From: a virus
Taxonomy: Duplodnaviria > Heunggongvirae > Uroviricota > Caudoviricetes
Virus record (IMG/VR): IMGVR_UViG_2693429518_000021
Length of the DNA: 42,445 nucleotides
Reading direction: 5' to 3' (one strand)
The position numbers were made by a program, and so were the translations under genes. This document shows, piece by piece, positions 1 through 42,445 of this stretch; positions within the stretch are counted from its first letter, which is position 1, and the number at the start of each line of letters is the position of its first letter. The notes below the pieces were generated by a model. That model had not been told where the DNA came from and did no database searches. It was given only the letters and a program-made list of their open reading frames with translations.

Positions 1-270
<270 letters not shown>

Positions 271-293
271 TTACCGTTAAATCATTTTAAAAT

Positions 294-340
294 CAGTAAG
301 TTGTATCGAGTTTGTATGCTTTACTGTCATTAACTTACTG
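294..340. repeat. 9-bp inverted repeat CAGTAAGTT / AACTTACTG (arms 294..302 and 332..340, 29-bp spacer) in the yfhL-int intergenic region
   Basis: Read directly from the sequence; function unknown (promoter/operator or part of the prophage attachment site). Confidence 0.4.
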
Positions 341-469
341 TATGTTGATCCAGTGTATTTAACCTTGATAAACTCAGTCCAGCAACACAAAACCGCAACA
401 CATTGCATTTTGTCCCGTAGAAAAGACTTGTATGTGTGAGCTTGTTTTCTGCGCCTACGCAGATAAGGA

Positions 470-1873
470 TTGAGAATGCCGCGCACTGTAACACATAATC
501 CGGATAGCCCCAATAATGACGATGTTTTAGCCGCATCTGAAAAATGGGACGCCTGTAAACCCCCCTATACCAGCGCACACATGAAAATCTGTGTTGCTGC
601 CGCCAAAATCATCCTCGCTGCTTCCGGCGTGGCTCGCCGTTCCAAATACGAAAAAGAGAACTATCTCCGTATCGATTTCAGCAAAGCCGGTAAGGTTACA
701 TTTTACGCCGAGTTTCCAAAAAAGATGGGCCTCAAGGGTAAAAAGCTCGGCGAGTGGCCGGAGCTCGCTATCCAGCTGGCGCGCGAAAAAGCGCTAGGTA
801 TGGCTGACTGTGGCTTGCGGGCAGAGTCAGTACATGCAGCGCTGGAAATGTACCGGGATGACCTCAAAGCCAAAGTCGCCCGGCAGAAGCTGAGCCCGGA
901 CAGTTTCACAACCTACGGGGTGCGTATCGACCGGATTAAAGCAACGTTCGGCGAGCGTGAGGTGTTCAGCGACGTAACATACAATCGGCTGGTGGAAGTG
1001 CTGGACGAGTGGATCGCCACTCGCTCGAACAATAACGCCCTGGAGTTGTTTGCCGAGCTCCGTCGGTTCTGGAAGTTCTGCGCACCTACTCTTTGCAACG
1101 GCCGCAATGTTGCCGCCAGTCTGCCAGATGATTATGTTTCCTCCCGCGTACAGAAACCTACCCCCACACGGCTTTTTACCGATATTGAATCAATCGCCCG
1201 ACTCTGGCTCAATGTTGCTGCCTGCACCTCTGTACACCAGAAGAATGCTGTTCGCTTCATGATCATCACTGGCGTTCGTCCGATTAATGTCCATAACCTG
1301 CGCTGGGACTACGTTCACGAGGAGGCTGGTGAAATTGTTTATCCGGAAGGGGTTATCGGCATGCGAGGGGCTATGAAAACACAAAAGGCTTTCCGCCTGC
1401 CGATAACGCCTGAGATTCGGCGGATTATCGACGAGCAGAAAGCCTGGCGTGATTCAGTTCCTGAGTGCAACAGGGATTATGTATTTTTGCAGCCACGTGA
1501 TCCAATGCAGCCATTTTCAAAACGATCACTGGATAAGCTGGTGAAAACATACAGCCCGGACGGGGCTGTAAAAGGAATAAAACATGATGGGACTGTTAAA
1601 GGGAAAGACGGTGCATTTAATACGATGTGCCGTAAATTCCTTAAGAGCAATGTTATTGCCTTGATGAAGGAAAGAGGCTATTCCCGATCAGACCGAAGGG
1701 AAATCAGCCTCCTTTGCCTTCACCACTCCAGCAAGTCAGATGACCCGATGGCAGAACATTACGACTTTTCTGATGAGATTTTACAGGAAGAGATTGCGTT
1801 AAAGCGCGAAGCTTTCGAGGCTCACGAGCGGAGCATACTTGCGCAGGTTGCATTGCTACGGCGGCGAGGTTAA
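470..1873 (+). CDS. int: Phage integrase, tyrosine recombinase family
   Basis: 467-aa ORF at the prophage/host junction; AAGGA Shine-Dalgarno 7 nt upstream; C-terminal region has Arg (GVRPINV), His-rich (LLCLHHSS) and Tyr (AEHYDF) residues in the order expected for a tyrosine recombinase catalytic domain. Start codon choice uncertain. Confidence 0.75.
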   Translation: MRMPRTVTHNPDSPNNDDVLAASEKWDACKPPYTSAHMKICVAAAKIILAASGVARRSKYEKENYLRIDFSKAGKVTFYAEFPKKMGLKGKKLGEWPELAIQLAREKALGMADCGLRAESVHAALEMYRDDLKAKVARQKLSPDSFTTYGVRIDRIKATFGEREVFSDVTYNRLVEVLDEWIATRSNNNALELFAELRRFWKFCAPTLCNGRNVAASLPDDYVSSRVQKPTPTRLFTDIESIARLWLNVAACTSVHQKNAVRFMIITGVRPINVHNLRWDYVHEEAGEIVYPEGVIGMRGAMKTQKAFRLPITPEIRRIIDEQKAWRDSVPECNRDYVFLQPRDPMQPFSKRSLDKLVKTYSPDGAVKGIKHDGTVKGKDGAFNTMCRKFLKSNVIALMKERGYSRSDRREISLLCLHHSSKSDDPMAEHYDFSDEILQEEIALKREAFEAHERSILAQVALLRRRG

Positions 1874-2070
1874 TACTGGCTGCGACACTTTTGAATAAAA
1901 GCGTCGACATTTCGGCGCTCATAACGAACTACTTTTGCACTGAAACGAATTGGTGCCAGGATAGCCCGATGACGATGCTTAATATTCCACTCACATAGCG
2001 TTTTCTGTGTAATACCTAACTTTTGGCATACTTCATCTGGGGTGAGTAAATCGTCGGGTTTCTCGCTCAT
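1870..2070 (-). CDS. Small DNA-binding protein, AlpA/Xis-like (helix-turn-helix)
   Basis: 66 aa; motif LLTPDEVCQKLGITQKTLCEW resembles AlpA-family prophage regulators/excisionases; start overlaps the helicase stop (ATGA), suggesting translational coupling. Confidence 0.55.
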   Translation of the reverse strand: MSEKPDDLLTPDEVCQKLGITQKTLCEWNIKHRHRAILAPIRFSAKVVRYERRNVDAFIQKCRSQY

Positions 2071-3461
2071 GCTATACCTCTCTTTTTCATGGCATCGAGC
2101 AGGATGTCCTGCACTGTTCGTTTTGAGTTGCGCCGCTCCATCACCATTTCGTCCATAGTGTCGGCCGCAATAATGTGGTGAATAAATACCGGACGATTGT
2201 GTCCGGCCTGTATCTGCCTGGTGGGGCCGATACGTTCAATAATTTGCTGATACTGCTCCAGGTCCCACCAGTGTGAGAAAAATACCAGTATGTTTCCGCC
2301 GTCCTGCATGTTCAGACCGTGGCCCGCGCTGGCTGGGTGTGCAAAGAGAACAGGAATCTTTCCGGAATTCCAGTCGCGCAGTGTCTGTGGATCTTGGTCG
2401 AGGTGACGACCGCGAGGGAATGCTTTAAGCAAGCGTTCAAGATCGTGTTTCCAGTGATAAGCAACCAGCACAGGTGCGCCAGCTGCTTCGGTCAGTATGC
2501 TGTCCAGCGCCTGCAGTTTGGTGTCATGCAGTTCTGACCAACTTCCGGTGTCGTCTGTGTATACTGCGCCACTGGCGATTTGCAGACACTTCAGTGTCTT
2601 TGCCGCGGCGTTTGGTGCTTCGATGCCTTCGCCATTCAGCTCGAGGAACATTTCCTTTTCCATTTCACGATACTGCTGACGGGCCTTCGGCGGCATATCC
2701 ACGCGGATTACGTTATGGATGGGGTCTTTGATATCGAACCAGTCGGCCGCATCCAGCGATAGGGTCACATCGGCTAACGCTCGCTGTATTTCACCCTGTG
2801 AGTGAGCAAACGGCTCCAGTTTGGTCCAGCTCTGCCCCGGAAACTGTATCGAGTTGAACCAGCGTGAGGTAAACGCGCCGTAAGTGCGTCCGAGACGTTG
2901 CCCCTGGTCCACAAACCACGCTTGTCCCCACAAATCTACCAGGCCGTTCGGTGCTGGCGTACCGGTGAGATTTATCCAGCGCCGGACATACTTATGCGCC
3001 ACTTTGCCCAGCGCCGCCGCGCGCTTACCACCACCTCGCAGCCGGAAGGATTTTAGCTGGGTGCTTTCATCTGGAATGACAGTACCGAACGGCCATCGTT
3101 CTCCCAATTCCTCAACCAGCCAGACAAGGTTATCGTAGTTGATGGTGAACACGCTTGCGTTGCTGTTCGCCAGCGCTGCAGAGCGCGCTTTGGCGTTACC
3201 AACAATCGGCTGCACCTCAATATTACGCAGATGCCCCCATTTAACAGCTTCATCAGGCCAGGTGCTTGCTGCAACGCGTAGCGGCGCGAGGACCAGCGCG
3301 GGGCGTGTTTCTGCTCCAGCCATGAAAAGATCTTCCAGCGTGGTGAGTGTCGCTACGGTTTTACCCATTCCCATACCTGCCCAGATGTTGCAGCGCATGA
3401 TGTCGATTTCGTGGTTGATAATGAGATCTTGGTAGGGGCGAGGGATAAAGTTTTGAGGCAT
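2067..3461 (-). CDS. Superfamily-2 helicase (SNF2/DEAD-like), phage replication module
   Basis: 464 aa; Walker A GMGKT, DEST (DExx-like) box, PYQ N-terminal motif, helicase C-terminal-like region. Confidence 0.8.
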   Translation of the reverse strand: MPQNFIPRPYQDLIINHEIDIMRCNIWAGMGMGKTVATLTTLEDLFMAGAETRPALVLAPLRVAASTWPDEAVKWGHLRNIEVQPIVGNAKARSAALANSNASVFTINYDNLVWLVEELGERWPFGTVIPDESTQLKSFRLRGGGKRAAALGKVAHKYVRRWINLTGTPAPNGLVDLWGQAWFVDQGQRLGRTYGAFTSRWFNSIQFPGQSWTKLEPFAHSQGEIQRALADVTLSLDAADWFDIKDPIHNVIRVDMPPKARQQYREMEKEMFLELNGEGIEAPNAAAKTLKCLQIASGAVYTDDTGSWSELHDTKLQALDSILTEAAGAPVLVAYHWKHDLERLLKAFPRGRHLDQDPQTLRDWNSGKIPVLFAHPASAGHGLNMQDGGNILVFFSHWWDLEQYQQIIERIGPTRQIQAGHNRPVFIHHIIAADTMDEMVMERRNSKRTVQDILLDAMKKRGIA

Positions 3462-3571
3462 TATAATCTCGCAAATTTTTGCTAGTTAGAGGTCGCACCA
3501 GTTGGCCTGGCAATTTTTACTATTCACAGCGAAGGTAACCCACAGGGTTAAATGTAAGGATAAACAATAAA

Positions 3572-4501
3572 ATGAGTGAATTTGGTGGTCAGCAACCCGC
3601 ACCCCAACAAGTACTGGACTTAGGTGTTAGTACTGAGGGGGTTTTTAACGAAATAGAAATGGGGGTTCTTCAGAACGGGATCTCCTACCTTACGCAAAAT
3701 GGGCTGGCTAGGATTTGCGGGGTGCATCGCAGTAATATCGCGGATATTTCTCGAGAGTGGGAAGAGAGCTTCCGCCACGGAGTTTTCGCTCGAGGGCGTA
3801 TGGAGTTTATCAGCTCATATTTACAGCGTGAGCAATATAATGAGCCGACTCTTTATATCCCAATCAACAAAGATGGGTCAGTCCATTATGCGTACCCAGA
3901 AGTAGTCTGTATGGCTATTCTGGAGTTCTACGCATTTGTATCTCAAAGTGCTGCAACTCCTACTGCGCTACAGTTTTTCCGCGAGCTATCCCGTGCGGGT
4001 ATGCGTGGTTACATCTATACAGCGCTTGGCTACATACCTGATGACCCTTGGCGTCATTACCACTCTCGTGTGTCAATCATGCATGGGGCAAACTCGGTTC
4101 CTGCTGGACACTTCATTGTATTCAATGAAATTGCTGGTTTAATGGTAGACCTCATCCATGCTGGATTAGCAGTAAACCAGTACACTGTACCGGATATCAG
4201 TGTGGGCCAGCACTGGGCTCGCTACTGGTCTTCTTCCAACTACGATGCGACGATTGGCCCAAGACAACGCTGCCAGCACTATTACCCTGAAGAATTCAAC
4301 CAATCCGCAAGTAATCCCCAAATGGTCTATGCATACCCTGATAATGCTTTAGCTGTATTCAGGCACTGGCTTCGTGCGGTTTATTTACCAACCAAATTCC
4401 CTAAATACCTTCTGAGTAAAGCAGGGCTATTGGCTGGCGGACAAACGGCGGCGTTGCAAATTATTGATAATTTTAATAATCGTGCATTACCTAACCCATA
4501 A
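3572..4501 (+). CDS. Hypothetical protein, possible Bro-N/KilA-N-like N-terminal DNA-binding domain; function unknown
   Basis: 309-aa ORF, the only plus-strand gene inside the minus-strand replication operon; tail-to-tail with the methyltransferase (stops 2 bp apart). N-terminal stretch FNEIEMGVLQNGISYLTQNGLARICGV resembles Bro-N/AntA/KilA-N-type folds (by eye, unverified). Confidence 0.6.
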   Translation: MSEFGGQQPAPQQVLDLGVSTEGVFNEIEMGVLQNGISYLTQNGLARICGVHRSNIADISREWEESFRHGVFARGRMEFISSYLQREQYNEPTLYIPINKDGSVHYAYPEVVCMAILEFYAFVSQSAATPTALQFFRELSRAGMRGYIYTALGYIPDDPWRHYHSRVSIMHGANSVPAGHFIVFNEIAGLMVDLIHAGLAVNQYTVPDISVGQHWARYWSSSNYDATIGPRQRCQHYYPEEFNQSASNPQMVYAYPDNALAVFRHWLRAVYLPTKFPKYLLSKAGLLAGGQTAALQIIDNFNNRALPNP

Positions 4502-4503
4502 TA

Positions 4504-5517
4504 TCAACAGATGAGGTCGTATCCTGTGCATTCCATAAACGAGCGGATGAATGTTGCGGCAGCTGGTGCGACTATCGCGTTGCCGTAGGCGCGCAGTCGT
4601 CCCACTCTGGAGGTAATCCCATGAGCCAACGGGAATGTGCCGGATTCAACTGGCCGCCAGCGACCATCCCGGCAGAGGAGCCAGTCAGCATCATCCCAGC
4701 AGCTGTTAATCGTATTGGGCCGCCGAGGGTCGTTCCCCGTTTGGTATGATTGGCCGCTGCGCCCTCGCCACGAACTTTGTTGTTGTCGACCGTCGTCACT
4801 GTCGGCCATCCCGCTAATCTGGATAGCCCCGCTAAGGTTTCTAGACCGCGTTTTGTCTCCGGCTGTGGGTTTGTGTTGCAGGTTGGGGTGTACCACCCCG
4901 CCAGGTGAGCAAAATCCCGCAGGGAGCTGTGTAGCGTGTTGCCGGACGGTCGACGATCTCCAGACATCTTCCTCAATGCTATTGAGGCGCTTTCGCCACC
5001 GCTGTGGTCGCTCGCCGCTGGCATCGGCCACCCAATACGCTCTATCTCGGATATGCGGGGCACCGACGCCCGCAGCCGGAAACGGGACAAGCCCAAAGGC
5101 GTAGTCCACTGCTTCCACGTCAGTTTGTACAAGATCGAACCAGGCATTGACTCCCGCAACCTGTTCGCCAAATACCAGCTCAGGGCGTCGCTCGCTGATG
5201 AGGTGGAATAGCGCTGGCCATAGGTGCCGCTCGTCATCAAATCCAGCGCCTTTACCAGCCGAGCTGAAAGGCTGGCACGGGCAACTTCCTGTCCAGACCG
5301 GTTTGTTATCCGGCCATCCGGCCAGACGCAGAGCATAAGACCAGACGCCGATCCCGGCGAAGAAATGGCACTGTGTGAATCCGCGCAAGTCGTCTGGTGC
5401 GACATCTTCGATACTCCTTTCATCAACTTCACCCGGGGCGATATGACCCGCAGCAATAAGGTTACGCAGCCATTGTGCTGCGTTAGGGTCTATTTCGTTG
5501 TAATAGGCTCCCCGCAC
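4504..5517 (-). CDS. DNA (cytosine-5)-methyltransferase
   Basis: 337 aa with C5-MTase motifs in canonical order: motif I FFAGIG, motif [11 protein letters not shown] (catalytic Cys), motif VI FGEQV (ENV-like), motif VIII IRDRAYW, motif X AYGNAIV. Confidence 0.85.
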
Positions 5518-5810
5518 AATATCCCCTCCAGATTTTTGCTATCCAGCACCACTACGGTAAAGCCCAGCGCGCGCAGTCGTCCGTGTTCACGCAGTTGGCC
5601 GGCGCGTGGTGTCTTGCCGGGTGCTTTACATTCAACGAAAACGATACGACCACCGGGTAGCAGAACAATGCGATCTGGTACCGAGCGGCGACCGGGAGAT
5701 ATAAACTTAAAGGCCACTCCGCCAGCTTTTTTCACTTCAGCGACGAGGTGCTTTTCGATAAGGCTTTCACGTTCATAGGCCATCTGAATCCCACTCTTCA
5801 AAAAGCACAT
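5490..5810 (-). CDS. VRR-NUC domain nuclease (PD-(D/E)xK)
   Basis: 106 aa; VPDRIVLL ... IVFVECKAPGK gives the D ... E-x-K signature; typical partner of phage PolA/helicase modules. Real start may be the internal MAYERE Met. Confidence 0.6.
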   Translation of the reverse strand: MCFLKSGIQMAYERESLIEKHLVAEVKKAGGVAFKFISPGRRSVPDRIVLLPGGRIVFVECKAPGKTPRAGQLREHGRLRALGFTVVVLDSKNLEGILCGEPITTK

Positions 5811-6072
5811 TCAATACCAGTTTCTCTGCCAACGCGTTTTCTGCACGTGCGCCGGCAGAGTACTCCCACTCTTTGAGCATATAAATCGTATCGGCACAGC
5901 GAAGCATTGCGAGGCAGATGTCCATGTACTGAGCCTGTGTCAAACCATCGGGTAAAGTTGCGGGGTTAAGCACAACATATCCCTTGTCCGTTAGCCTCTT
6001 TGCTGCGGAATGAAAGGCCGGGCGGTTAAATTGCTCGTAACCGCTCATCGGCCCGGCAACGTAAACGATCAT
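5773..6072 (-). CDS. DUF4406 / nucleoside 2-deoxyribosyltransferase-like protein
   Basis: 99 aa; N-terminal IVYVAGPMSGYEQFNRPAFH resembles the DUF4406 family signature (from memory). Confidence 0.45.
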   Translation of the reverse strand: MIVYVAGPMSGYEQFNRPAFHSAAKRLTDKGYVVLNPATLPDGLTQAQYMDICLAMLRCADTIYMLKEWEYSAGARAENALAEKLVLNVLFEEWDSDGL

Positions 6073-6284
6073 TCTTCGACCGCCTTACGCTTTTCACGCA
6101 TATTCTGCATCAGGCAAAAATCAGATCTGCGTTCACTCCATTCCTGATTCAGTTCGTGATGTGATTCGCGGTTGGCTTTTGCCCAGACCTTCGCTGCCCG
6201 GTCATATTCGCCGGATTGTTCAAGTCGCAAAGCCTCCCTTGCAGCCCTGTAATAAAGTGGATTGTCCCGGTATTTAAATGACAT
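6069..6284 (-). CDS. Hypothetical small protein
   Basis: 71-aa ORF wedged between PolA and the DUF4406 gene on the same strand, with overlapping/abutting stops and starts. Confidence 0.4.
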   Translation of the reverse strand: MSFKYRDNPLYYRAAREALRLEQSGEYDRAAKVWAKANRESHHELNQEWSERRSDFCLMQNMREKRKAVEE

Positions 6285-6289
6285 AGGAG

Positions 6290-8353
6290 TTAATCCTTAC
6301 GGTAGTGGTACGCCTCAAAACCGCCAGCGTTCAGTGGGATATCTGGCGCCCATTCGGGGTTAGTGGAGAGAAGCGCGGAAAGCGCTTTATCGTTGAAATC
6401 TTCTGTGTCAGGTGATTCGGTGATCACCTCGTCGTGTACCGTCAGCACAATGCTGTAACCGGCATCTTCGATAAGCGGCATGTTTCCGGCCAGAACGTCG
6501 CGGGCGGCCGCCTGGGTGACGTTCTCCACCAGCTTTCCGCCGTAGGTTTTGAGTCGTTGCCATTTACGCGAATAAGAGTTAACACCCATGTAGGTGATAT
6601 TCCCTTGTTCGATAACCGGAGACGGGTAGCATACAGCGCGTCCGGATGGTAGCTGTATGCGCAGCCACGCGCCATCGCGGCGGATTTTAAGATAACCGCA
6701 ATACAATGTTTTTTGCGGTGTGGCGATTGCTGTGCGGACGGTGCACTCCAGTTCGTACCAGAAATCACAGGTCGCGGGATGCGCCCGGCGCCAGAGACGT
6801 TTAAGTGAGTCGCAGGCGATAAATACCCGTTCAGAAAGCCCGTAGGTCGATTTACGTTTAACCGATTCGTCGTACCAGCTTTTCGCCTCGCGGATAACAT
6901 CGCGGGGAATGTTTGGCAGTGCGGCGTTCGCCAGCCCGTCGAGATCGAGACCGTAAACCAGAGCAAAAGTGATGAAAGCCGATACACCTCCTCCATAACC
7001 CAGACCGAGTTCCATGACTTTACCGATCTGACGCATGTGTTTATCAACATCATCTGGTGCAATATCGAAAGCTTTTGCATACGCCAGTTTATATAAGTCC
7101 GGACCCGTTCCGGCGTCGTACTCTCTGAATGCATTCAGTTTCCATTCTTCTCCCGCCAGCCATGCCAGCATACGGCCTTCAATGTTCGACAAGTCACTTA
7201 CCACCAGCTTTTTGCCTGTTGGCGCGATAATGCAGCCACGTAACGCTGAACTGGTTAGTTCCATGATATTGTCAAACAGCAGGTCTGCACATCCGGCTTT
7301 CAGTGCTTCGATGCCTTCGTCTATTTGTTCCTGTTTTAGTGAAGGGCGGGGAAGGTTCTGGGGCTGGAATAGCCGTCCGGCCCAACGACCGGTACGTGAC
7401 GCCCCGCAGAACTGTAGCGTACCGCGTAAGCGCCCGTCGTGGCTTACGCCTTTCATCAGTGCCTTGTATTTACTGGTGCTGGTAGTACTGGCCTGCAGGC
7501 GGATAGCCAGCAGTTCTTTCACGGCAGATGGTAAATCGGGGTCGGCAATACGACGTTCCAGAGTACTGCGTTGCATGTCTGGTAGCTCCACACCGTAGGA
7601 TTCAACAATGTGCTTAATCAACGCGTCTCGTTGTGTGGCTGCCTGCACTTCGCCATCAGTCATTTCCTGTGTACGCTTTGCCAGGCGCTTTTGTTCCTGG
7701 TCTACCGCGTCGATCGCAGCGCGTGCGAGTTCCACGTCCATGCAGACGCCCCGGTCATTGATCTGCTGATCACGATGCCAGAGCGCCAGTTCTGTCCCCT
7801 GATAATTCCACTTCGGCAGACGTTTATAGACTTCGCGCATTGCCTCGATATCCAGTCCGGCGTAAGCAACAAAGCGCCGCCATTCTTCCGGGTGGGTTTT
7901 GCTGGTGGCCCGGCGCAGTTTGCTGTTTTTCGGGCGTGGCTTACAGAACAGCTGGATCAGCGCTTTACCTTCTTTGTCCTTCGCTTTGTCTTGCGGGACG
8001 CCTAGTACTTCGCAGAGTTCCCCCAGAGCCCCCGGGAGACCGTGCGCCAGCGCCTGCACCATCGTGTCGCGCCAACGTTCGACTGGCGGTGCCAGTCGCG
8101 GCATTGCATAACGCAGGACGGTGCGGTCGAAGTGAGAGTTATGAAAATAAAGCAGGGTTTCAGGGGCTGCGATTGCTTCGTATAAGCCGTGTGGAATACC
8201 ACCACCGGCAGTGATATCCCATACGTTTACTGGCCCGTCGTTGATAGCCCATGCGAACAGCATCACTTCAACGCCTTCGGCATACGCATGGGTACCGTTC
8301 GTAATAGGGATTTCGCAATAGGTTTCCAGGTCGCCCCATAGTATATTGGACAT
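6290..8353 (-). CDS. DNA polymerase, family A (with 3'-5' exonuclease domain)
   Basis: 687 aa; exonuclease DxE (WGDLETY), polymerase motif A ([19 protein letters not shown]-like), motif B ([16 protein letters not shown]), motif C (VHDE). Confidence 0.85.
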
Positions 8354-8399
8354 GTGTTTACCTTGGTTTTTATTCTATTAACTGATTAAAAGATTAATT

Positions 8400-9029
8400 A
8401 TGCATATGATCCAATACTTGATTGACCATACAGAGCATCTGGAGAAAATAGCTGGATATATTTTTTCATGTTTGATTGTTATGGGAGTCTGGATAAGAAA
8501 GATCATTTTTAATTATAAGTATAAAGAGCCTAAATATGTCAAGAAGTTAATTTTATATTTAGTTAAGTATGAACGTTATCTGGATAAGGAGGATAAGAGT
8601 GCCATAGAAAAAAGAATAAATGATAAAATTATTCGTGATGCGCTGAAATTGCAATCTTCTTATAACCGAAGTGATGTTATTTACATTTGCAATAGATTAG
8701 AAAAAAGACAGTATATAAATCAGGTGATTAAGCTTCAGAATTATATAGAGAAAGATAACGGAGTGTTTTTCATCAATGTTAATTTTTCAGGTTTTTTATT
8801 TATTATTAGTCGTCTGTTTTCCTTTCTGTGTTTTGTGCTGTTTATCCTTTTTTCTATTATCTGCATTATTTCCATAGGGCAAAATGAAGGCCTTTTAAAT
8901 TATCTTGTGTATATGGTTATGACAATAGTTTTAGAGACTGTTGGTTTTTGGATGTATGATACTTTCCCGTCTAAGAAGAAGATCTGTGAACTAAATAAAG
9001 AATTGAGGAAGATTAAGATTCCTGAGTGA
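8400..9029 (+). CDS. Hypothetical membrane protein (AT-rich accessory gene)
   Basis: 209-aa ORF, visibly AT-rich with Lys/Ile/Asn/Tyr-rich codon usage unlike neighbours; predicted TM segments (IAGYIFSCLIVMGVWI; FLFIISRLFSFLCFVLFILFSIICIISI; LVYMVMTIVLETVGFWMY); antisense to the polymerase/SSB operon. Confidence 0.6.
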   Translation: MHMIQYLIDHTEHLEKIAGYIFSCLIVMGVWIRKIIFNYKYKEPKYVKKLILYLVKYERYLDKEDKSAIEKRINDKIIRDALKLQSSYNRSDVIYICNRLEKRQYINQVIKLQNYIEKDNGVFFINVNFSGFLFIISRLFSFLCFVLFILFSIICIISIGQNEGLLNYLVYMVMTIVLETVGFWMYDTFPSKKKICELNKELRKIKIPE

Positions 9030-9047
9030 TTATACGCCTAATCAGCA

Positions 9048-9066
9048 GCCCGGTATTTAACCGGGC
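9048..9066. terminator. Hairpin GCCCGGT-ATTTA-ACCGGGC between convergent genes
   Basis: Perfect 7-bp stem read from sequence; no clear U-tract on either strand, so terminator function is tentative. Confidence 0.3.
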
Positions 9067-9081
9067 GTCTATGAAGTAGGG

Positions 9082-9630
9082 TTAAATCAGTGCTTCAGCA
9101 TCAGCACCTTCGCTGATATCGTCGAAATCGTCAGCGCTTGCCACTCCGCCGCCAGCGAATGCATCGCCGTCTCGCAGGAACTGGACTCCGCCTAGTGAGG
9201 CATTAATGCGTTTACCGAAATTATTGTCCTGTGCCCAGATATCGATAACGGCGTTTACATAGCACCCTGCATAGGGACGTCCATCAGCCTGAATAAGTGG
9301 CGAACGATCGCGATCAAGAACAGCTGGGCGCGCTTTGTTAGCAGCATTCAGGAAGAAATTGCCGGGGAAGCCTTCATACTCTGCTTTTTCATCACCATCA
9401 TGCAGGCACAGATTGAGTTTTTTCTCCAGTTGGTTATAAATGGGCTCCCACTTCTCTCCCCATTTTTCCTTCGCTACCTGCTTCATAGCTTTACGGATTT
9501 CTTCCAGTTGTGGGTGTTTGGGTGACATTAAAAATACTGCGGAGAAACGTGGATCGCCTTCGCCGTTTACAGTTTTAGCTTCAAACAGAGACGGGAAGGC
9601 CAGACGAACATTGTTCAGCTTCAGTTTCAT
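9082..9630 (-). CDS. DUF2815-family phage protein, ssDNA-binding-like
   Basis: 182 aa; N-terminal MKLKLNNVRLAFPSLFE and acidic C-terminal tail (DDFDDISEGADAEALI) typical of SSB-like proteins. Confidence 0.5.
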   Translation of the reverse strand: MKLKLNNVRLAFPSLFEAKTVNGEGDPRFSAVFLMSPKHPQLEEIRKAMKQVAKEKWGEKWEPIYNQLEKKLNLCLHDGDEKAEYEGFPGNFFLNAANKARPAVLDRDRSPLIQADGRPYAGCYVNAVIDIWAQDNNFGKRINASLGGVQFLRDGDAFAGGGVASADDFDDISEGADAEALI

Positions 9631-35616: not shown

Positions 35617-35619
35617 TTG

Positions 35620-35790
35620 ATGACAACATCAAATAATGACAACTCACAGCAAAGCAAGCCAACGCAAGCAGAGCAATCCATGGCTGATTATGAAAGCAGT
35701 ATAATGCTTGAAGTACCTTTTGGTGGATTGGATTACATGACAGAAAGCGTTAAAGAACCTGAGTTGGACAATTTTAAACAGAAAAAATAA
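35620..35790 (+). CDS. Hypothetical small acidic protein (56 aa), accessory
   Basis: ATG 35620 to TAA 35788..35790 (MTTSNNDNSQQSKPTQAEQSMADYESSIMLEVPFGGLDYMTESVKEPELDNFKQKK); below the ORF-track size cut-off; followed by a terminator. Confidence 0.35.
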   Translation: MTTSNNDNSQQSKPTQAEQSMADYESSIMLEVPFGGLDYMTESVKEPELDNFKQKK

Positions 35791-35811
35791 ACTTAGAGTT
35801 GTTCCTGTAGA

Positions 35812-35838
35812 CCCGCCACTTGGCGGGTTTTTTGTTTT
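35812..35838 (+). terminator. Intrinsic terminator (CCCGCC-ACTT-GGCGGG plus T-run) closing the accessory cassette
   Basis: Perfect 6-bp GC stem followed by TTTTTTGTTTT. Confidence 0.55.
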
Positions 35839-35852
35839 CAGGAGTTTATCAA

Positions 35853-36605
35853 ATGGCCATATCAGACCAGACTCGTAGCGGCGACCTTGCCGAAACATTC
35901 AAATCCGAGCGGGAAACCACAAAGAACCAGATCCGCGTCGCTTTGCCTGGCATCGTTCAGTCATTCGATCCTGACGCGGTGACGGCGGTTGTGCAGCCTG
36001 CTATTCGTTCGGTTGAAACCGACAACGACGGCAACCGCGTAACCAAAAATTACCCGCTGCTGGTGGATGTGCCGGTGGTATTTCCGCGCGGCGGCGGCTG
36101 CACGTTAACTTTCCCGGTAAAAGCCGGCGATGAATGCCTGGTGATTTTTGCCGATCGCTGCATCGATTTCTGGTGGCAGAGTGGCGGGATACAGGAGACG
36201 GTCGATGACAGAATGCATGATTTATCGGATGCGTTTTGTATTGTCGGTCCCCAGTCGCAGGCAAGGAGGATTAGCGGTATTAATACCAGTGCCACACAGT
36301 TGCGTAGTGATGACGGCAGCACCTATTTTGAGCTTAATCCTGATACCAGGAAAATTAAAATTGTCGCTCCGGGTGGTCTTGATGTGGTTGCCCCTCTGGC
36401 TGATTTTTCTGAGAAAGTAACCATTCATGGCCTGTTAACCTGGATGGGGGGCATGGTGGGGTCTGTGGTTTCTGGTGTGGCTTCAAAAATCACTGGTGCT
36501 GTTGAGTTTTTGGGGAGCGTGAAGGCTAACGGCAAGCCAATCGATGATACGCACACTCATGGCGGTGTTCAGCGCGGTGGAAGCAATACCGATAGGGTAA
36601 ACTGA
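35853..36605 (+). CDS. Baseplate assembly protein V-like (spike)
   Basis: ATG 35853 (MAISDQ...) preceded by CAGGAG; C-terminal HTHGG motif resembles P2 gpV/Mu gp45-type spikes; the track start at 35820 lies inside the upstream terminator. Confidence 0.6.
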   Translation: MAISDQTRSGDLAETFKSERETTKNQIRVALPGIVQSFDPDAVTAVVQPAIRSVETDNDGNRVTKNYPLLVDVPVVFPRGGGCTLTFPVKAGDECLVIFADRCIDFWWQSGGIQETVDDRMHDLSDAFCIVGPQSQARRISGINTSATQLRSDDGSTYFELNPDTRKIKIVAPGGLDVVAPLADFSEKVTIHGLLTWMGGMVGSVVSGVASKITGAVEFLGSVKANGKPIDDTHTHGGVQRGGSNTDRVN

Positions 36606-36958
36606 TGCGATACAGACGTGAAGACGCCGATGGCGATTACACCTTTGGCAGCGGTGATGACACCTGGCTGATTAACTCACCGGAGGCCGTGGCGCAGGCG
36701 GTAAAAACGCGATTTGAATTGTGGTATGGGCAATGGTTTCTCGACACCACCGAAGGGACCCCGTGGATCCAGTCTGTGCTCGGTAAGCAGAAGCCGGAAA
36801 CCTACAACCTGGCGATCCGTAAGCGCATCCTCGAAACGCGGGGCGTTAAATCAATCCTCTCTTTCAATACGACGGTGGATACCACGACCCGACGTGTCAT
36901 GTTTTCCGCTGAAATCGACACTCTCTATGGAATAACGACTGTTAAATCGGAGGCGTAA
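36605..36958 (+). CDS. Baseplate protein W-like (gp25/GPW family)
   Basis: 117-aa ORF between V-like and J-like genes; assignment by size and order. Confidence 0.5.
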   Translation: MRYRREDADGDYTFGSGDDTWLINSPEAVAQAVKTRFELWYGQWFLDTTEGTPWIQSVLGKQKPETYNLAIRKRILETRGVKSILSFNTTVDTTTRRVMFSAEIDTLYGITTVKSEA

Positions 36959-38157
36959 TGGCTCTGAACCTTGATTCTCTCGGTTTATCTGCAAAGGTAA
37001 CCGCGGAGGGGATCAGTGCGCCTGATTATCAGACGATACTCAGCACCCTGATTAGCTATTTTCAGCAGATTTATGGCAGTGATGCCTACCTCGAACCGGA
37101 TAGTAAAGACGGCCAGATGGTGGCTCTGATGGCGCTGGCGATTCATGATGCCAATAATACTGCGATAACTGTCTACAACTGTTTTTCACCGGCAACCGGC
37201 TATGGGGCCGCACTGACCAGTAACGTGAAAATAAATGGTATTTCACGTAAAGGCGCGACGAATTCTACGGTTGATTTGCTTCTTACAGGAACTGCCGGAA
37301 CAACCATCATTAATGGCAGCGTGAAAGACAGTAATAGTGTGATATGGCGTTTGCCTGCTTCAGTGGTGGTCGGCGTGGATGGTACAGTGATGGCGACCGC
37401 AACATGTTCCGTCAGTGGTGCAGTGGCGGCGCTGGCTGGAACTATCACTGAAATTAATACGCCAACCCGTGGCTGGGTTTCGGTAACTAATCCTGCTGCG
37501 GCTACTGTTGGCTCTCCGGCAGAAACTGATGCGGAGTTACGTATCCGCCAGTCGCAAAGTGTTGCGTTGCCATCAATAACCCCATTTGAAGCACTGGATG
37601 GTGCTGTTTCTAATGTTACCGGTGTAACCCGCCACAAACTCTATGAAAACGATACTGGTTCGGAGGACGGTAACGGGTTACCGCCACACTCTGTTGCTGT
37701 AATTGTGGATGGCGGTGATGTGATGGATATTGCTCAGGCTATCAGAGGGAATAAAGGCCAGGGGACAGCCACTCACGGTACAACATCCGTTACGGTTCCG
37801 GATAAATACGGCAATCCCCATGTAATCAAATTCTCGCGTTCCAGTGATGTGCCTGTTTATGCCCGGATTAAATTAAAAGTTTTTACGGGTTATACCTCAC
37901 AGATAGGGCAGCAGATCCAGCAGGCTATTTCCGACTATATCAATAGTCTGATGATTGGTGATTCGGTCCTTTTAAGTCGCATTTACTCACCGGCGAATCT
38001 TGGCGTGGTGAGTGGCGGGAATGCACGCTATTACGATATTCAGGAACTGACGATTGGGAAATCTCCGGGGGCTTTGTCGTCATCAAACATTGATATCAGA
38101 TACAACGAATCTGCGTCCTGTACCCCGGAAAATATCGTTATAACGGTGGAGTCATGA
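36958..38157 (+). CDS. Baseplate J-like protein
   Basis: 399-aa ORF in the V-W-J-I-fibre order; its last ~140 codons lie in the duplicated module. Confidence 0.6.
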   Translation: MALNLDSLGLSAKVTAEGISAPDYQTILSTLISYFQQIYGSDAYLEPDSKDGQMVALMALAIHDANNTAITVYNCFSPATGYGAALTSNVKINGISRKGATNSTVDLLLTGTAGTTIINGSVKDSNSVIWRLPASVVVGVDGTVMATATCSVSGAVAALAGTITEINTPTRGWVSVTNPAAATVGSPAETDAELRIRQSQSVALPSITPFEALDGAVSNVTGVTRHKLYENDTGSEDGNGLPPHSVAVIVDGGDVMDIAQAIRGNKGQGTATHGTTSVTVPDKYGNPHVIKFSRSSDVPVYARIKLKVFTGYTSQIGQQIQQAISDYINSLMIGDSVLLSRIYSPANLGVVSGGNARYYDIQELTIGKSPGALSSSNIDIRYNESASCTPENIVITVES

Positions 38158-38834
38158 GCAAATACACCGAACTAATCACGAACTACCACGCCACCAAACC
38201 TAAATTTCTTGCACATGTTGATCTGATGACCCGGCCGCTTATTGATGTTGCGGCGGCCACCAGAGGGCTGATTACTGCATTTGATATTGACTCTGCGGTT
38301 GGTGTGCAACTTGACATTCTGGGATTGTGGATCGGACGTAGCCGTGTTGTCAGCCAGCCTATCTCAGGTGTTTATTTCAGCTGGGATACCGACGGGCTTG
38401 GATATGATCAGGGTGTATGGCAGGGACCATACGATCCTGATTCCGGATACATGTACCTCAGCGATGAAACTTATCGTGTCATCCTTAAAGCGAAGATTGC
38501 GATTAATAACTGGGACGGACGGAATGATTCGCTTCCGGCAATTCTTGACGCGGCAACAGCAGGATCCGGGCTGCGAATGCAGATAGTCGATAACCAGGAC
38601 ATGACGATATCGGTCTGGGTCTTTCCTGATACTGATATTTCAGATGTATCGCGTGAGTTAATTGCGGCAATTAAACAGGGGTATCTCACAGTAAAAGCCG
38701 CCGGGGTATGGGCGGGGGGCATTGAAACTCCTTCGGTGGAAACCCCATCGGAAGGCTCAAAATTTTTTGGTTTTGATATGGATAACGAATTCATCAGTGG
38801 TTTTGATGTAGGAGCATGGGGAGTATTACTCTGA
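38154..38834 (+). CDS. Baseplate/tail protein I-like (copy 1)
   Basis: 226-aa ORF; translation identical to 39972..40652. Confidence 0.5.
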
Positions 38835-39643
38835 TGGCGAAAAATGACTTTAAAGCGTTTGCAACTGATCGAAATGCCAATGTTATGTCGCAGGAGGAAT
38901 GGGAAGCGTTGCCTGCGCTTTTATCCGGATTTACAGCAGGGAAAGCATCCAGTGCGCAGGTGAACAAAGCCATTCGACAGGCCAGCTTTATTGCTGCAGC
39001 TCTGGCCCAGTTTGTAAGTGACAAAACGCAACGGGATGTGCTTGATAATGGTGATCTGCCCGGTTTTGTTGAATTGCTGGGATCGGGGTTTGCTGTTGAA
39101 TACCTGAGCCGCAAGAATCCGTTTGGCGATATCAAATCGGATGGCACTGTGCAAACGGCTCTCGAAAACCTTGGTTTGGGAGAAGGTTCTGCATTACCTG
39201 TTGGTGTGCCTGTTCCGTGGCCTTCAGTCACACCGCCAACAGGCTGGCTGAAATGCAACGGTGCGGCTTTTTCTGCTGAAGAATACCCGGAACTGGCAAA
39301 GGCTTACCCGACCAATAAATTGCCTGATTTACGCGGTGAATTTATTCGTGGCTGGGATGACGGTCGCGGGATTGATACTGGTCGCGCTTTGCTTAATTGG
39401 CAGCCACACACAATTTTGGACCATGCACACTATATGGAATTATGGACAGGGGACGGACTCGCCGCAGGAAGTGCACGGGAAGGAGTAAACCCAGGAATAC
39501 TGGCTACATACGGTGACGGGGGAATAGTTAAAACGGACGAACCCGGTCTTAAAAGGCTATCAGAGGGAATAAAGGCCAGGGGACAGCCACTCACGGTACA
39601 ACATCCGTTACGGTTCCGGATAAATACGGCAATCCCCATGTAA
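38834..39643 (+). pseudogene. Tail fibre gene, copy 1: constant N-terminus plus truncated collar-domain variable cassette, fused out of frame to the duplicated J fragment
   Basis: First ~117 codons identical to fibre copy 2; from 39186 a different C-terminal cassette with tail-collar-like motifs ([23 protein letters not shown]); the frame crosses the junction at 39553/39554 and ends after ~30 unrelated codons. Confidence 0.5.
39159..39184 (+). other. hix/gix/cix-like DNA invertase crossover site, copy 1 (CTCTCGAAAACC-TT-GGTTTGGGAGAA)
   Basis: 26-bp imperfect palindrome with the AAACC-NN-GGTTT core typical of Hin/Gin/Cin sites (from memory); copy identity ends 1 bp after the site. Confidence 0.55.
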
Positions 39644-39975
39644 TCAAATTCTCGCGTTCCAGTGATGTGCCTGTTTATGCCCGGATTAAATTAAAAGTTT
39701 TTACGGGTTATACCTCACAGATAGGGCAGCAGATCCAGCAGGCTATTTCCGACTATATCAATAGTCTGATGATTGGTGATTCGGTCCTTTTAAGTCGCAT
39801 TTACTCACCGGCGAATCTTGGCGTGGTGAGTGGCGGGAATGCACGCTATTACGATATTCAGGAACTGACGATTGGGAAATCTCCGGGGGCTTTGTCGTCA
39901 TCAAACATTGATATCAGATACAACGAATCTGCGTCCTGTACCCCGGAAAATATCGTTATAACGGTGGAGTCATGA
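39554..39975 (+). pseudogene. 3' fragment of the J-like baseplate gene (duplicate, no start)
   Basis: Translation of 39667..39975 is identical to the last 102 residues of the J-like protein; the fragment begins at the duplication junction. Confidence 0.6.
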
Positions 39976-40652
39976 GCAAATACACCGAACTAATCACGAA
40001 CTACCACGCCACCAAACCTAAATTTCTTGCACATGTTGATCTGATGACCCGGCCGCTTATTGATGTTGCGGCGGCCACCAGAGGGCTGATTACTGCATTT
40101 GATATTGACTCTGCGGTTGGTGTGCAACTTGACATTCTGGGATTGTGGATCGGACGTAGCCGTGTTGTCAGCCAGCCTATCTCAGGTGTTTATTTCAGCT
40201 GGGATACCGACGGGCTTGGATATGATCAGGGTGTATGGCAGGGACCATACGATCCTGATTCCGGATACATGTACCTCAGCGATGAAACTTATCGTGTCAT
40301 CCTTAAAGCGAAGATTGCGATTAATAACTGGGACGGACGGAATGATTCGCTTCCGGCAATTCTTGACGCGGCAACAGCAGGATCCGGGCTGCGAATGCAG
40401 ATAGTCGATAACCAGGACATGACGATATCGGTCTGGGTCTTTCCTGATACTGATATTTCAGATGTATCGCGTGAGTTAATTGCGGCAATTAAACAGGGGT
40501 ATCTCACAGTAAAAGCCGCCGGGGTATGGGCGGGGGGCATTGAAACTCCTTCGGTGGAAACCCCATCGGAAGGCTCAAAATTTTTTGGTTTTGATATGGA
40601 TAACGAATTCATCAGTGGTTTTGATGTAGGAGCATGGGGAGTATTACTCTGA
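39972..40652 (+). CDS. Baseplate/tail protein I-like (copy 2)
   Basis: Identical to 38154..38834. Confidence 0.5.
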
Positions 40653-41350
40653 TGGCGAAAAATGACTTTAAAGCGTTTGCAACTGATCGAAATGCCAATG
40701 TTATGTCGCAGGAGGAATGGGAAGCGTTGCCTGCGCTTTTATCCGGATTTACAGCAGGGAAAGCATCCAGTGCGCAGGTGAACAAAGCCATTCGACAGGC
40801 CAGCTTTATTGCTGCAGCTCTGGCCCAGTTTGTAAGTGACAAAACGCAACGGGATGTGCTTGATAATGGTGATCTGCCCGGTTTTGTTGAATTGCTGGGA
40901 TCGGGGTTTGCTGTTGAATACCTGAGCCGCAAGAATCCGTTTGGCGATATCAAATCGGATGGCACTGTGCAAACGGCTCTCGAAAACCTTGGTTTGGGAG
41001 AAGCGGCGAAAAGGGATGTGGGTACAGGAGAAAATCAGATACCGGATATGTCAGCCTGGAAAAGAAATCCGAGTTCTAATCGCTGGAGAAAATTGCCTGA
41101 TGGAACCATCATTCAAATGGGAATATCAGCATCAGGGCCATTAGGCTCACCTGTAAATATCACCCTGCCGATATCTTTCAGCAATACCAATTATTGTGTT
41201 GTTGCATCGTACGATAATGCACGGTCAGGTGTGTCAACAATGGTTAGTTTTGCAGCATTACCTGTTTCACCATCGCAATTTTCCCTGATGTCATCTGTGA
41301 CTGAGCAAGGAGTAAATCCTTTTGCTTACTGGATTGCTTTTGGAGATTGA
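40652..41350 (+). CDS. Tail fibre protein (constant N-terminus plus variable cassette in current orientation)
   Basis: ATG 40652 overlaps the I-like stop (TGATG); sequence diverges from copy 1 after the gix-like site at 41003. Confidence 0.6.
40977..41002 (+). other. hix/gix/cix-like DNA invertase crossover site, copy 2; probable left boundary of the invertible segment
   Basis: Identical to the site at 39159..39184; lies at the constant/variable junction of the fibre gene. Confidence 0.55.
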
Positions 41351-41353
41351 TAA

Positions 41354-41773
41354 ATGGACAGATACTTCTATTCACAAAAAGAAAATGGTTTTTTTACCGA
41401 TTTAAATAAAGCACCTTCAGATGCTGTTGAGATAACCACGGATGAATGGCTGTCACTACTGGATGGTCAGGATAATGGCATGAAAATAGTCAGCAATCAG
41501 GAGGGATATCCGGTTTTGACAGAGCAACCACCTTTATCAAAAGAAAACCTTATTGCATTGGCAGAGTTGAAAAAAGGAAAACTTATTAATGAAGCCAACG
41601 AGCACATGAATAGCAGGCAATGGCCTGGTAAAGCCGCTATTGGTCGTCTGAAAGGTGACGAGCTGGAACAATATAATTTATGGCTGGATTATCTGGACGC
41701 ACTGGAACTGGTTGATATCTCCAGTGCTCCAGATATTGAATGGCCTACGCCTCCGGCAGTTCAGGCCAGATGA
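41354..41773 (+). CDS. tfa: Tail fibre assembly protein (Tfa/U-like)
   Basis: 139 aa; C-terminal motif DISSAPDIEWPTPP typical of Tfa chaperones; directly follows the fibre gene. Confidence 0.65.
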   Translation: MDRYFYSQKENGFFTDLNKAPSDAVEITTDEWLSLLDGQDNGMKIVSNQEGYPVLTEQPPLSKENLIALAELKKGKLINEANEHMNSRQWPGKAAIGRLKGDELEQYNLWLDYLDALELVDISSAPDIEWPTPPAVQAR

Positions 41774-42350
41774 CATCCGGCGCGGTGCTGGTATCTGTTG
41801 CAGTCACCGCGTCAATGTAATCCAGCACAGCGTTAAGCCGGGTTGTTTCTGCCTGCGTCAGCTTCCGCCCGGCCTGTAATTTCAGTTGAATCAGACTAAT
41901 GGAAGCCATTGCAGCATCAATCAGTGACTGACGCTGTGCTTCTGCCGCTTCGACTGCTGCGCTATGCTGTGCCTCAGTATCGGTCACCCATTTCTCACCA
42001 TCCCATTTATCGTATGGCGTTAATGGAGCGATAGTGGTTGTATTTTCAGGGTAATCACCCGGAGCTGTGATTTCTTTTGATTCTCCTGTTTCAGTGCTAT
42101 AGACCGTTTCACCGCGATGGTCTGGCACATATTCCCATGAGTTAAAATCTGCAGAACGGCAAATTGCATAACCAGCTTTATATGAGCCAGGAGCATCTAA
42201 ACAGGAACATGCCGGGATACCGACACCCACAGCAAGATATTCAGTTGATGTGGAAATATATTCCCGTGTCTCACCATCATAATTGTAAACGGTAATGTCT
42301 CCCGCCTTTGTGGTGATGAGTTCGCTATTTAATACAGCTTTATTCATCAT
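41745..42350 (-). CDS. tfa: Tail fibre assembly protein, alternative copy (Tfa'/U'-like), inverted orientation
   Basis: 201 aa; resembles lambda Tfa as I recall it (EYVPDHRGETVYSTETGE, DTSTAPDVIWPELP); convergent with and overlapping the plus-strand tfa by 29 nt. Confidence 0.7.
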   Translation of the reverse strand: MMNKAVLNSELITTKAGDITVYNYDGETREYISTSTEYLAVGVGIPACSCLDAPGSYKAGYAICRSADFNSWEYVPDHRGETVYSTETGESKEITAPGDYPENTTTIAPLTPYDKWDGEKWVTDTEAQHSAAVEAAEAQRQSLIDAAMASISLIQLKLQAGRKLTQAETTRLNAVLDYIDAVTATDTSTAPDVIWPELPEA

Positions 42351-42445
42351 GCGGCCCTTACGATATAATTAAAAGCGATGTTACGAGGACGAGTTTCTGT
42401 ACCTACATTTTCACTAATTTCACCATAACGTTTAACACTACGAGA
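42345..42445 (-). CDS. 3' end of an alternative tail-fibre variable cassette (partial; continues beyond the window)
   Basis: Minus-strand frame is open from the window edge (...SRSVKRYGEISENVGTETRPRNIAFNYIVRAA) to a TGA overlapping the Tfa' start (ATGA). Confidence 0.5.

What the first reader, a model, noticed from the sequence alone, without database searches (positions are those of the whole stretch)
37736..41003. Perfect 1450-bp tandem duplication of the baseplate/tail-fibre constant module carrying two different fibre C-terminal cassettes
Segment 37736..39185 (3' end of the J-like gene, the whole I-like gene, fibre N-terminus) recurs identically at 39554..41003. After copy 1 comes a 368-bp collar-domain fibre cassette (39186..39553) that is cut off mid-domain by the junction; after copy 2 comes a different, intact cassette (41004..41350). 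The structure A-B-A-C looks like a recombination scar that captured a second receptor-binding cassette. Perfect identity implies a very recent event, ongoing gene conversion, or an assembly error.
Basis: seen in the sequence. Interest (0 to 1): 0.6.

Follow-up and report, generated by a model that had tools for sequence, protein, structure and literature searches.

The report
Scaffolding artefact at invertible tail-fibre switch
The "perfect tandem duplication" is not a real piece of DNA: it is two draft-assembly contigs, one for each orientation of a well-known flip-flop tail-fibre switch in an E. coli prophage, glued end to end across a one-letter gap (an N in the public record that appears as A in this window).

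Summary
The repeat is in the sequence as described: 37736-39185 equals 39554-41003, 1450 bp, 100%. It is not a biological duplication.

The window is the last 42.4 kb of a draft E. coli contig (GCA_001284785.1, CYAH01000005.1). In that record the base joining cassette B to copy 2 (window 39553) is an N; the window shows A. So the junction is a scaffold join with no sequence support.

Thirteen complete genomes match one of the two junctions at 100%, and each lists it once. In the two loci read in full (O103:H2 12009 and 129) the module is single-copy. It is followed by an e14/Pin-type invertible segment: constant fibre N-terminus | crossover site | cassette B + tfaE, then, inverted, tfa + cassette C | crossover site | pinE.

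The repeat's right edge is exactly that crossover site. B and C are the two alternative fibre ends of one switch. The rest of B lies inverted at the window's end, 28 nt beyond where the partial B stops.

The culture most likely held both orientations, each was assembled as its own contig, and a scaffolder concatenated them. The junction was not found in 5,426 complete E. coli genomes or three other collections. Interest is low.

The parts
36958..38157 (+). Baseplate J gene, 399 aa, intact. Its last 422 nt form the start of repeat copy 1.
   Evidence: ORF. Pfam PF04865 hit, E 7e-15. The region is identical to L004 (strain 129), where WP_001197085.1 is annotated as in 12009.
37736..39185 (+). 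Repeat copy 1 ('A'). It is part of sub-contig X, which runs uninterrupted from upstream through J, DUF2612 and the fibre N-terminus.
   Evidence: One search shows 1450 bp at 100% identity. Window 31736-39552 matches the 12009 locus L002 1-7817 with 1 mismatch.
38154..38834 (+). DUF2612 / baseplate wedge gene, 226 aa, copy 1.
   Evidence: Pfam PF11041 hit, E 4e-47.
38834..39185 (+). Constant N-terminal part of the tail-fibre gene (copy 1), ending at the crossover site.
   Evidence: The annotated start in 12009 is L002 7099, which corresponds to window 38834.
39161..39185 (+). Pin crossover site (pix), CTCGAAAACCTTGGTTTGGGAGAAG, copy 1. It is the right edge of the repeat.
   Evidence: The site is identical to the one in the e14 ycfK/stfP gene of E. 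coli K-12, and 79 nt around it are 100% identical.
39186..39552 (+). First 367 nt of cassette B, the Collar-domain, StfE-like fibre C-terminus. This is the orientation-1 junction and the end of sub-contig X.
   Evidence: It is 100% identical to B in 12009 and to the inverted B in strain 129. Pfam PF07484 hit.
39553..39553 (.). Scaffold gap. The base is 'N' in the source record (CYAH01000005.1) and is shown as 'A' in the window.
   Evidence: This is the only difference between L005 and the window over 12,779 bp. It was read directly in both sequences.
39554..41003 (+). Repeat copy 2 ('A'), the start of sub-contig Y. It carries a 5'-truncated J fragment, a second DUF2612 copy (39972-40652) and the fibre constant part (40652-41003).
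   Evidence: Window 39554-42445 is 100% identical to strain 129 locus L004 3591-6482.
40979..41003 (+). Pin crossover site (pix), copy 2.
41004..41350 (+). Cassette C, the Gp53-like_C fibre C-terminus. This is the orientation-2 junction.
   Evidence: Pfam PF21882 hit, E 5e-13. It lies inverted next to pinE in 12009 and is fused to the fibre in strain 129.
41354..41773 (+). Tail-fibre assembly chaperone (139 aa) that goes with cassette C.
   Evidence: Pfam PF02413 hit, E 1e-25. The region is 100% identical to strain 129, where WP_000376434.1 is annotated as in 12009.
41745..42350 (-). tfaE-like tail-fibre assembly chaperone (201 aa) that goes with cassette B. It is inverted here.
   Evidence: Pfam PF02413 hit, E 3e-33. 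About 90% DNA identity to e14 tfaE.
42347..42445 (-). Last 99 nt (32 codons plus stop) of cassette B, inverted. The source contig ends here. Together with 39186-39552 and 28 missing nt it makes the full B cassette.
   Evidence: It translates to SRSVKRYGEISENVGTETRPRNIAFNYIVRAA*, the C-terminus of the 12009 fibre. The window end corresponds to L002 7846 and to the end of the 244,361-bp contig.

Best explanation
The A-B'-A-C structure is a scaffolding artefact laid over a known kind of genetic switch.

What is really there is one copy of the J / DUF2612 / fibre-N-terminus module. It is followed by an invertible segment of about 1.84 kb of the e14 P-segment (Pin/Gin/Cin) kind. A serine invertase recombines two inverted crossover sites. 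This fuses the constant fibre N-terminus either to cassette B (Collar domain, with chaperone TfaE) or to cassette C (gp53-like, with a 139-aa chaperone).

The sequenced culture most likely contained both orientations (inferred). The assembler built one contig through the A|B junction, called X here, ending 367 nt into B. It built another through the A|C junction, called Y, starting in mid-J at 37736 and ending 99 nt from the far end of B. Both contigs therefore contain A.

A scaffolder then placed Y after X and wrote a single N between them (shown). The N became 'A' in this window. The steps inside the assembler are inferred.
For: 1. Source record. A look-up of the 102-aa J-fragment ORF found NCBI GCA_001284785.1 contig CYAH01000005.1. 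Its last 12,779 bp equal window 29667-42445 except at one position, N versus A, exactly at the B-to-A junction, window 39553. The window end is the contig end.

2. Relatives. The window is collinear with the yfhL-yfhH prophage of O103:H2 12009 at 99.9% identity. It can be written as L002[1..7817] + N + L002[6001..7450] + reverse complement of L002[7846..9287]. Strain 129 carries the same locus in the opposite orientation and is 100% identical to window 39554-42445. In both loci the module is single-copy.

3. Crossover site. The right edge of the repeat is the Pin crossover site. It is identical to the e14 site of K-12, and its inverted partner lies next to pinE in the relatives.

4. Coverage of the segment. 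X and Y run into cassette B from opposite sides and stop 28 nt apart. Together they cover the invertible segment once.

5. Both junctions occur in nature. A|B is 100% identical in 4 complete genomes and A|C in 9, with no genome appearing in both 100% lists.

6. The B-to-A junction was not found elsewhere. It is absent from 5,426 complete E. coli genomes. It is also absent from IMG/VR, the GTDB representative genomes and the JGI metagenomes, even allowing 0-20 arbitrary bases at the join. No gene product spanning it is on record.

7. Literature. The e14 segment sits at about 1:1 mixed orientation in clonal cultures (PMC4272514). Lone Ns in scaffolds mark misassemblies in other projects (PMC6907397, PMC5902842).
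Against: - I could not see reads or learn which assembler and scaffolder were used. No paper cites the accession.
- Nothing in the sequence explains why Y begins at 37736 or why X and Y stop 28 nt apart at a small hairpin.
- An N does not by itself prove that the flanks are not adjacent. It shows only that no sequence supports the join.
- pinE is frameshifted in the two close relatives I read. Mixed orientation in the culture would therefore need an intact pin in this strain (not visible in the window) or an invertase acting in trans. PinQ acting on e14 is a precedent for the latter (PMC12529663).
Confidence: 0.9

Rival explanations
1. The strain really carries a tandem duplication of about 1.8 kb (37736 to 367 nt into B). 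The assembler resolved both copies but could not read the junction, hence the N. Pin then flipped the segment next to copy 2.
For: The order and orientation of the two parts (direct repeat, A-B'-A-C) are what such an event followed by an inversion would give. The breakpoint in B lies 11 nt upstream of a hairpin, which could be a site of replication stalling or template switching.
Against: - A real junction would be covered by reads and would be assembled as bases, not as an N.
- Short-read assemblers collapse a 1450-bp perfect repeat.
- The junction is absent from every collection searched.
- Contig Y ends 28 nt short of where a repeat of B' would begin. It does not end at or inside that repeat as expected for a repeat-induced break.
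- The thirteen complete genomes with a 100%-identical junction each list it once, and the two loci read in full are single-copy.
Confidence: 0.04
2. The genome holds two dispersed real copies of the module. One example would be a second, 5'-truncated copy of the tail region in another prophage or behind an IS element. The scaffolder wrongly joined them.
For: STEC genomes carry several prophages with related fibre genes, up to 9 places per genome for the B-containing query. In other strains J is cut by IS elements within about 110 nt of 37736: IS2 at 37735 in L007, and others in L008, L012 and L014.
Against: - In the closest complete genomes (12009, 129 and others) A, B and the 28-nt gap region each occur once.
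- X and Y together cover the invertible segment exactly once. One locus seen in two states explains this; two loci do not.
- The nearby IS sites are a selection effect of the look-up: the disruption must fall within 37722-37849 for the 102-aa ORF to be called.
Confidence: 0.05
3. This is the first reader's favoured reading: a recombination scar by which the phage captured a second, foreign receptor-binding cassette. The perfect identity of the copies would be maintained by a recent event or by gene conversion.
For: Only the A-B-A-C layout itself.
Against: - B and C are both resident parts of the same invertible segment in the two near-identical prophages read in full, each with its own chaperone gene.
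- B' is 100% identical to that resident B, and the rest of B is in the window, inverted.
- The junction is an N.
Confidence: 0.01

Closest known systems
Invertible P segment of cryptic prophage e14 in E. coli K-12 (pinE, ycfK/stfP, tfaP, tfaE, stfE); Plasterk & van de Putte 1985, Mehta et al. 2004 (cited in PMC4272514)
   Same: - The crossover sites are identical: CTCGAAAACCTTGGTTTGGGAGAAG and TTCTCCCAAACCAACGTTTATGAAAA.
- 79 nt around the left site are 100% identical.
- tfaE is about 90% identical and pinE plus the start of B/stfE about 87% identical at the DNA level.
- The layout is the same: constant fibre part | site | cassette + chaperone, then inverted chaperone + cassette | site | pin.
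- The size is similar: 1837 bp here, 1797 bp in e14 (PMC12529663).
   Different: - It sits in a different, apparently complete myovirus-like prophage between yfhL and yfhH, not at icd.
- Cassette C (gp53-like) gave no BLAST match to e14 DNA, including the StfP variable part.
- pinE carries a 1-nt deletion in the two complete relatives read.
- The invertase gene and the right-hand site lie beyond the end of this window.
G segment of phage Mu (Gin), C segment of P1 (Cin) and other Din-family tail-fibre host-range switches (my own knowledge of the family)
   Same: A serine-invertase switch exchanges the C-terminal receptor-binding part of a tail fibre together with its cognate assembly chaperone. 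Both states are found among near-identical genomes.
   Different: The window was not compared with Mu or P1 directly, and the Fis enhancer was not examined.
Scaffold 'lone N' misjoins, and assembly breaks or haplotype duplication at phase-variable inversions
   Same: A single N sits between two blocks that duplicate each other, and the contig ends inside the invertible segment. Lone Ns were found to mark misassembly in ALLPATHS-LG and other scaffolds (PMC6907397, PMC5902842). e14-type segments sit at about 1:1 mixed orientation in clonal cultures (PMC4272514).
   Different: The software used for this assembly is unknown. My recollection that SSPACE and ABySS write one 'n' for a negative gap was not verified here.

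Membership tests
Real tandem duplication (structural variant) | A contiguous, sequence-supported junction between the end of unit 1 and the start of unit 2 | tested here: not met
   The junction base is N in source record CYAH01000005.1. This is the only difference from the window in 12,779 bp.
Real tandem duplication (structural variant) | The junction recurs in independent genomes or assemblies of the lineage | tested here: not met
   There are no hits in 5,426 complete E. coli genomes. There are none in IMG/VR, GTDB representatives or JGI metagenomes with a 0-20 nt spacer allowed. No junction-spanning protein is on record.
Real tandem duplication (structural variant) | Doubled read depth over the repeated unit, or long reads spanning both copies | not testable with these tools
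   No read data are accessible.
Pin/e14-type (Din family) invertible tail-fibre segment | Two inverted ~26-bp crossover sites with an AAACC-NN-GGTTT core flanking the segment | tested here: met
   In relatives L002 and L004 both sites are present and identical to those of e14. The window holds the left site (twice, because of the artefact). The right site lies beyond the contig end.
Pin/e14-type (Din family) invertible tail-fibre segment | A serine invertase gene adjacent to the segment | tested here: inconclusive
   The gene is not in the window, because the contig ends first. pinE is present next to the segment in 12009 and 129, 86% identical to K-12 pinE, but with a 1-nt deletion that truncates it after about 100 aa.
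Pin/e14-type (Din family) invertible tail-fibre segment | A constant fibre N-terminus outside the segment, and two alternative C-terminal cassettes with cognate chaperone genes in opposite orientation inside it | tested here: met
   The Collar cassette pairs with TfaE(201 aa) and the Gp53-like_C cassette with Tfa(139 aa).
Pin/e14-type (Din family) invertible tail-fibre segment | Both orientations are observed for the same element | tested here: met
   12009 and strain 129 carry the same proteins in opposite orientation. The A|B junction is 100% identical in 4 genomes and A|C in 9. Both junctions are in this one assembly.
Pin/e14-type (Din family) invertible tail-fibre segment | A Fis-dependent recombinational enhancer inside the invertase gene | not tested
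   The invertase gene is outside the window and the enhancer was not examined in the relatives.

The most novel reading that the evidence does not exclude
The isolate really carries the 1.8-kb tandem duplication. That would give two direct pix sites plus one inverted site. The prophage would then make a truncated Collar-type fibre and a switchable full fibre at the same time, and Pin could delete or expand the module. The N would merely hide a junction that exists.
Probability: 0.04. Interest if true: 0.35.

Novelty: not a real feature. Interest (0 to 1): 0.06.

Why it matters
The value is mainly as a caution.

Phase-variable inversions are present as mixtures even in clonal cultures. Draft assemblers can therefore output both states, and a scaffolder can string them together into a fake tandem duplication that carries two receptor-binding cassettes. 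Replacing N by a real base in a processing pipeline hides the one mark that gives this away. Here it also created a fake chimeric 275-aa ORF and a fake 'untemplated' base at the junction.

The biology underneath is an e14/Pin-type tail-fibre switch in an O103:H2-type prophage. This is a known kind of system and adds nothing new beyond one more example.

Tried and rejected
- **Microhomology or a shared k-mer at the B'/J junction:** none is present. Left extension is 0 nt, so the join is not a de Bruijn misjoin through a short repeat.
- **Pin pseudo-site at 37736 or at b367:** by eye, neither flank has the AAACC-NN-GGTTT core. The pattern search found only the two known sites in the window.
- **A repeat with another prophage causing the break inside B:** rejected. 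The 111-nt stretch around the break is single-copy and contiguous in most of the listed complete genomes with 100% identity, including all the O103:H2-type relatives.
- **IS hot spot at 37736:** IS2 sits at 37735 in L007, and other IS elements sit at 37750, 37758 and 37845 in other strains. I attribute this to the look-up itself. The 102-aa ORF is called only when J is disrupted between 37722 and 37849.
- **Fold-back or palindrome at the hairpin:** the base after the stem at the window end is the normal one, not the one a strand switch would give.
- **Other hidden N-to-A positions:** comparison with 12009 shows only isolated substitutions in window 1-32672. L005 shows a single N in 29667-42445.
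- **Origin of the assembly:** literature searches for the accession found nothing. The SSPACE and 'negative gap' searches did not confirm the single-n convention I recall.
- **First exact-pattern scans:** searches used the artefactual 'A'. They were repeated with a 0-20 nt wildcard.
- **First protein look-up:** it used the 275-aa ORF start. It was repeated with the called 269-aa start. The source record itself cannot match either, because its codon contains the N.
Full report
**1. Observation**

Window 37736-39185 and 39554-41003 are identical over exactly 1450 bp. Identity drops to background on both sides.
- the 3' part of a Baseplate_J gene (36958-38157)
- a DUF2612/wedge gene
- the N-terminal 117-123 codons of a fibre gene

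After copy 1 comes a Collar-domain cassette (B). After copy 2 comes a Gp53-like_C cassette (C), followed by a 139-aa fibre-assembly chaperone and, on the minus strand, a 201-aa TfaE-like chaperone.

**2. What the locus is**

The window is 99.9% identical to the prophage that sits between yfhL and yfhH/tadA in E. coli O103:H2 12009. Window base 1 is the last base of the host gene yfhL.

In 12009 the module occurs once and the order is: J, DUF2612, fibre (constant part + B, 281 aa), tfaE, then inverted tfa(139 aa) and inverted C, then pinE. O103:H2 strain 129 has the same proteins with the segment flipped: fibre (constant part + C), tfa139, inverted tfaE, inverted B, pinE.

The window can be written as L002[1..7817] + one base + L002[6001..7450] + reverse complement of L002[7846..9287]. 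Its second half, 39554-42445, is 100% identical to strain 129.

The right edge of the repeat, CTCGAAAACCTTGGTTTGGGAGAAG, is the recombination site. It is identical to the site in the e14 ycfK/stfP gene of K-12. Its inverted partner, TTCTCCCAAACCAACGTTTATGAAAA, lies next to pinE in 12009, in 129 and in e14.

So B and C are the two alternative ends of one Pin-type invertible tail-fibre switch. Neither is a captured foreign cassette. Among 5,426 complete E. coli genomes, the A|B junction is 100% identical in 4 and the A|C junction in 9. Each of those lists the junction once.

**3. The junction**

Cassette B after copy 1 matches the real B for 367 nt. Then comes one base that fits neither side (39553), then mid-J.

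The last 99 nt of the window, on the minus strand, encode the C-terminal 32 residues of the B-form fibre. B is therefore not truncated by recombination. It is split between 39186-39552 and 42347-42445, with 28 nt missing in between.

A look-up of the 102-aa ORF made by the truncated J copy found the source: NCBI assembly GCA_001284785.1, contig CYAH01000005.1, 244,361 bp. Its last 12,779 bp equal window 29667-42445 at every position but one. Where the window has A at 39553, the record has N. The window end is the contig end.

The join between B' and copy 2 is therefore a one-N scaffold gap with no sequence evidence behind it. The 'A', the chimeric 275-aa ORF and the apparently untemplated base all come from turning N into a base.

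**4. Independent checks**

The junction was not found in any of the following:
- any complete E. coli genome (the megablast query would tolerate any base at the N)
- IMG/VR, the GTDB representative genomes or the JGI metagenomes, even allowing 0-20 arbitrary bases at the join
- the gene-product collection, which has no product spanning the junction

The other contigs that carry the 102-aa ORF are J genes cut by IS elements, frameshifts or contig ends. None has this junction.

**5. Mechanism of the artefact (inferred)**

e14-type segments are present at about 1:1 mixed orientation in cultures grown from single colonies (PMC4272514). Pin homologues can flip such segments in trans (PMC12529663). 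That matters here because pinE carries a 1-nt deletion in both 12009 and 129, which nevertheless differ in orientation.

With both states in the DNA, the assembler built two contigs:
- X goes through the A|B junction.
- Y goes through the A|C junction.

Both contain A. Together they cover the invertible segment once, meeting head-on in B. A scaffolder then linked them and wrote a single N. In other projects a lone N has been found to mark misassembly (PMC6907397, PMC5902842). I recall that SSPACE and ABySS write a single n when they estimate a negative gap, but I could not verify this here.

**6. What stays unexplained**

I could not find why Y starts at 37736. I also could not find why X and Y stop 28 nt apart at a small hairpin (dG -8.4 kcal/mol, z -3.7). 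That region is single-copy and contiguous in the close relatives. The assembler and scaffolder are unknown.

**7. Rivals**

- **Real tandem duplication hidden behind the N (0.04).** It would be expected to give junction reads and hence bases, not an N. It would also be expected to end the contig at or inside the B' repeat, not 28 nt before it.
- **Two dispersed real copies wrongly scaffolded (0.05).** This does not explain why X and Y partition the segment exactly once, and the close relatives have one copy.
- **Capture of a foreign cassette (0.01).** This is contradicted by the resident single-copy B and C in the relatives.

**8. Verdict**

The repeat is in the sequence, but it is not a feature of the genome. 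The biology underneath is a known kind of switch, the e14/Pin-type fibre inversion. Interest is low. The useful lesson is technical: mixed-orientation invertons can produce fake duplications in scaffolds, and masking N as a base hides the evidence.

Noticed in passing
L002 9370-9923 and L004 6960-7513 (relatives; beyond the window end): pinE next to the invertible segment has the same 1-nt deletion in O103:H2 12009 and in strain 129, truncating it after about 100 aa. Yet the two strains hold the segment in opposite orientations. This suggests inversion by another prophage's invertase acting in trans, as PinQ does on e14 (PMC12529663).
   Followed up: partly
L002 7818-7855; window 39552/39553 and 42445: The 28 nt of cassette B missing from the window, TGTGCCTTCCTCACTACGAGCTATTAGC, cover the 5' arm and loop of an 11-bp-stem hairpin (dG -8.4 kcal/mol, z -3.7). 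Both sub-contigs end at it. The cause is unknown.
   Followed up: partly
window 22808-23581: The phage minor head protein gene is an intact 257-aa ORF here. The 12009 record has one extra A (opposite window 23135) and annotates the gene as frameshifted. The prophage in this isolate may therefore be less decayed than in 12009.
   Followed up: partly
L006, L007, L008, L012, L014 (equivalent to window 37319-37845): In several other E. coli assemblies the J gene of related prophages is interrupted by IS elements: IS2 at the equivalent of 37735, others near 37750 and 37758, an IS66-family element at 37845, and a transposase-carrying insert in L006 at the equivalent of about 37319. The clustering of most of these sites is largely imposed by how the loci were retrieved.
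   Followed up: partly
window 1-261 and 476-1873: The window starts exactly at the end of the host gene yfhL (minus strand) and continues with a tyrosine integrase. It looks like a predicted provirus cut at a gene boundary on the left and by the contig end on the right. Positions 67-69 differ from 12009 by three consecutive bases (TTG versus CGC) inside yfhL.
   Followed up: no
window 2067-25000: The prophage is about 96% identical to the GenBank 'Escherichia phage vB_EcoM-606R2 / 611R5 / 689R2' records. Some of those records also break at or near the invertible segment. For example, 689R2 ends right after DUF2612 and 720R4 starts in the chaperone genes. The same assembly problem is therefore common in that series.
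   Followed up: no
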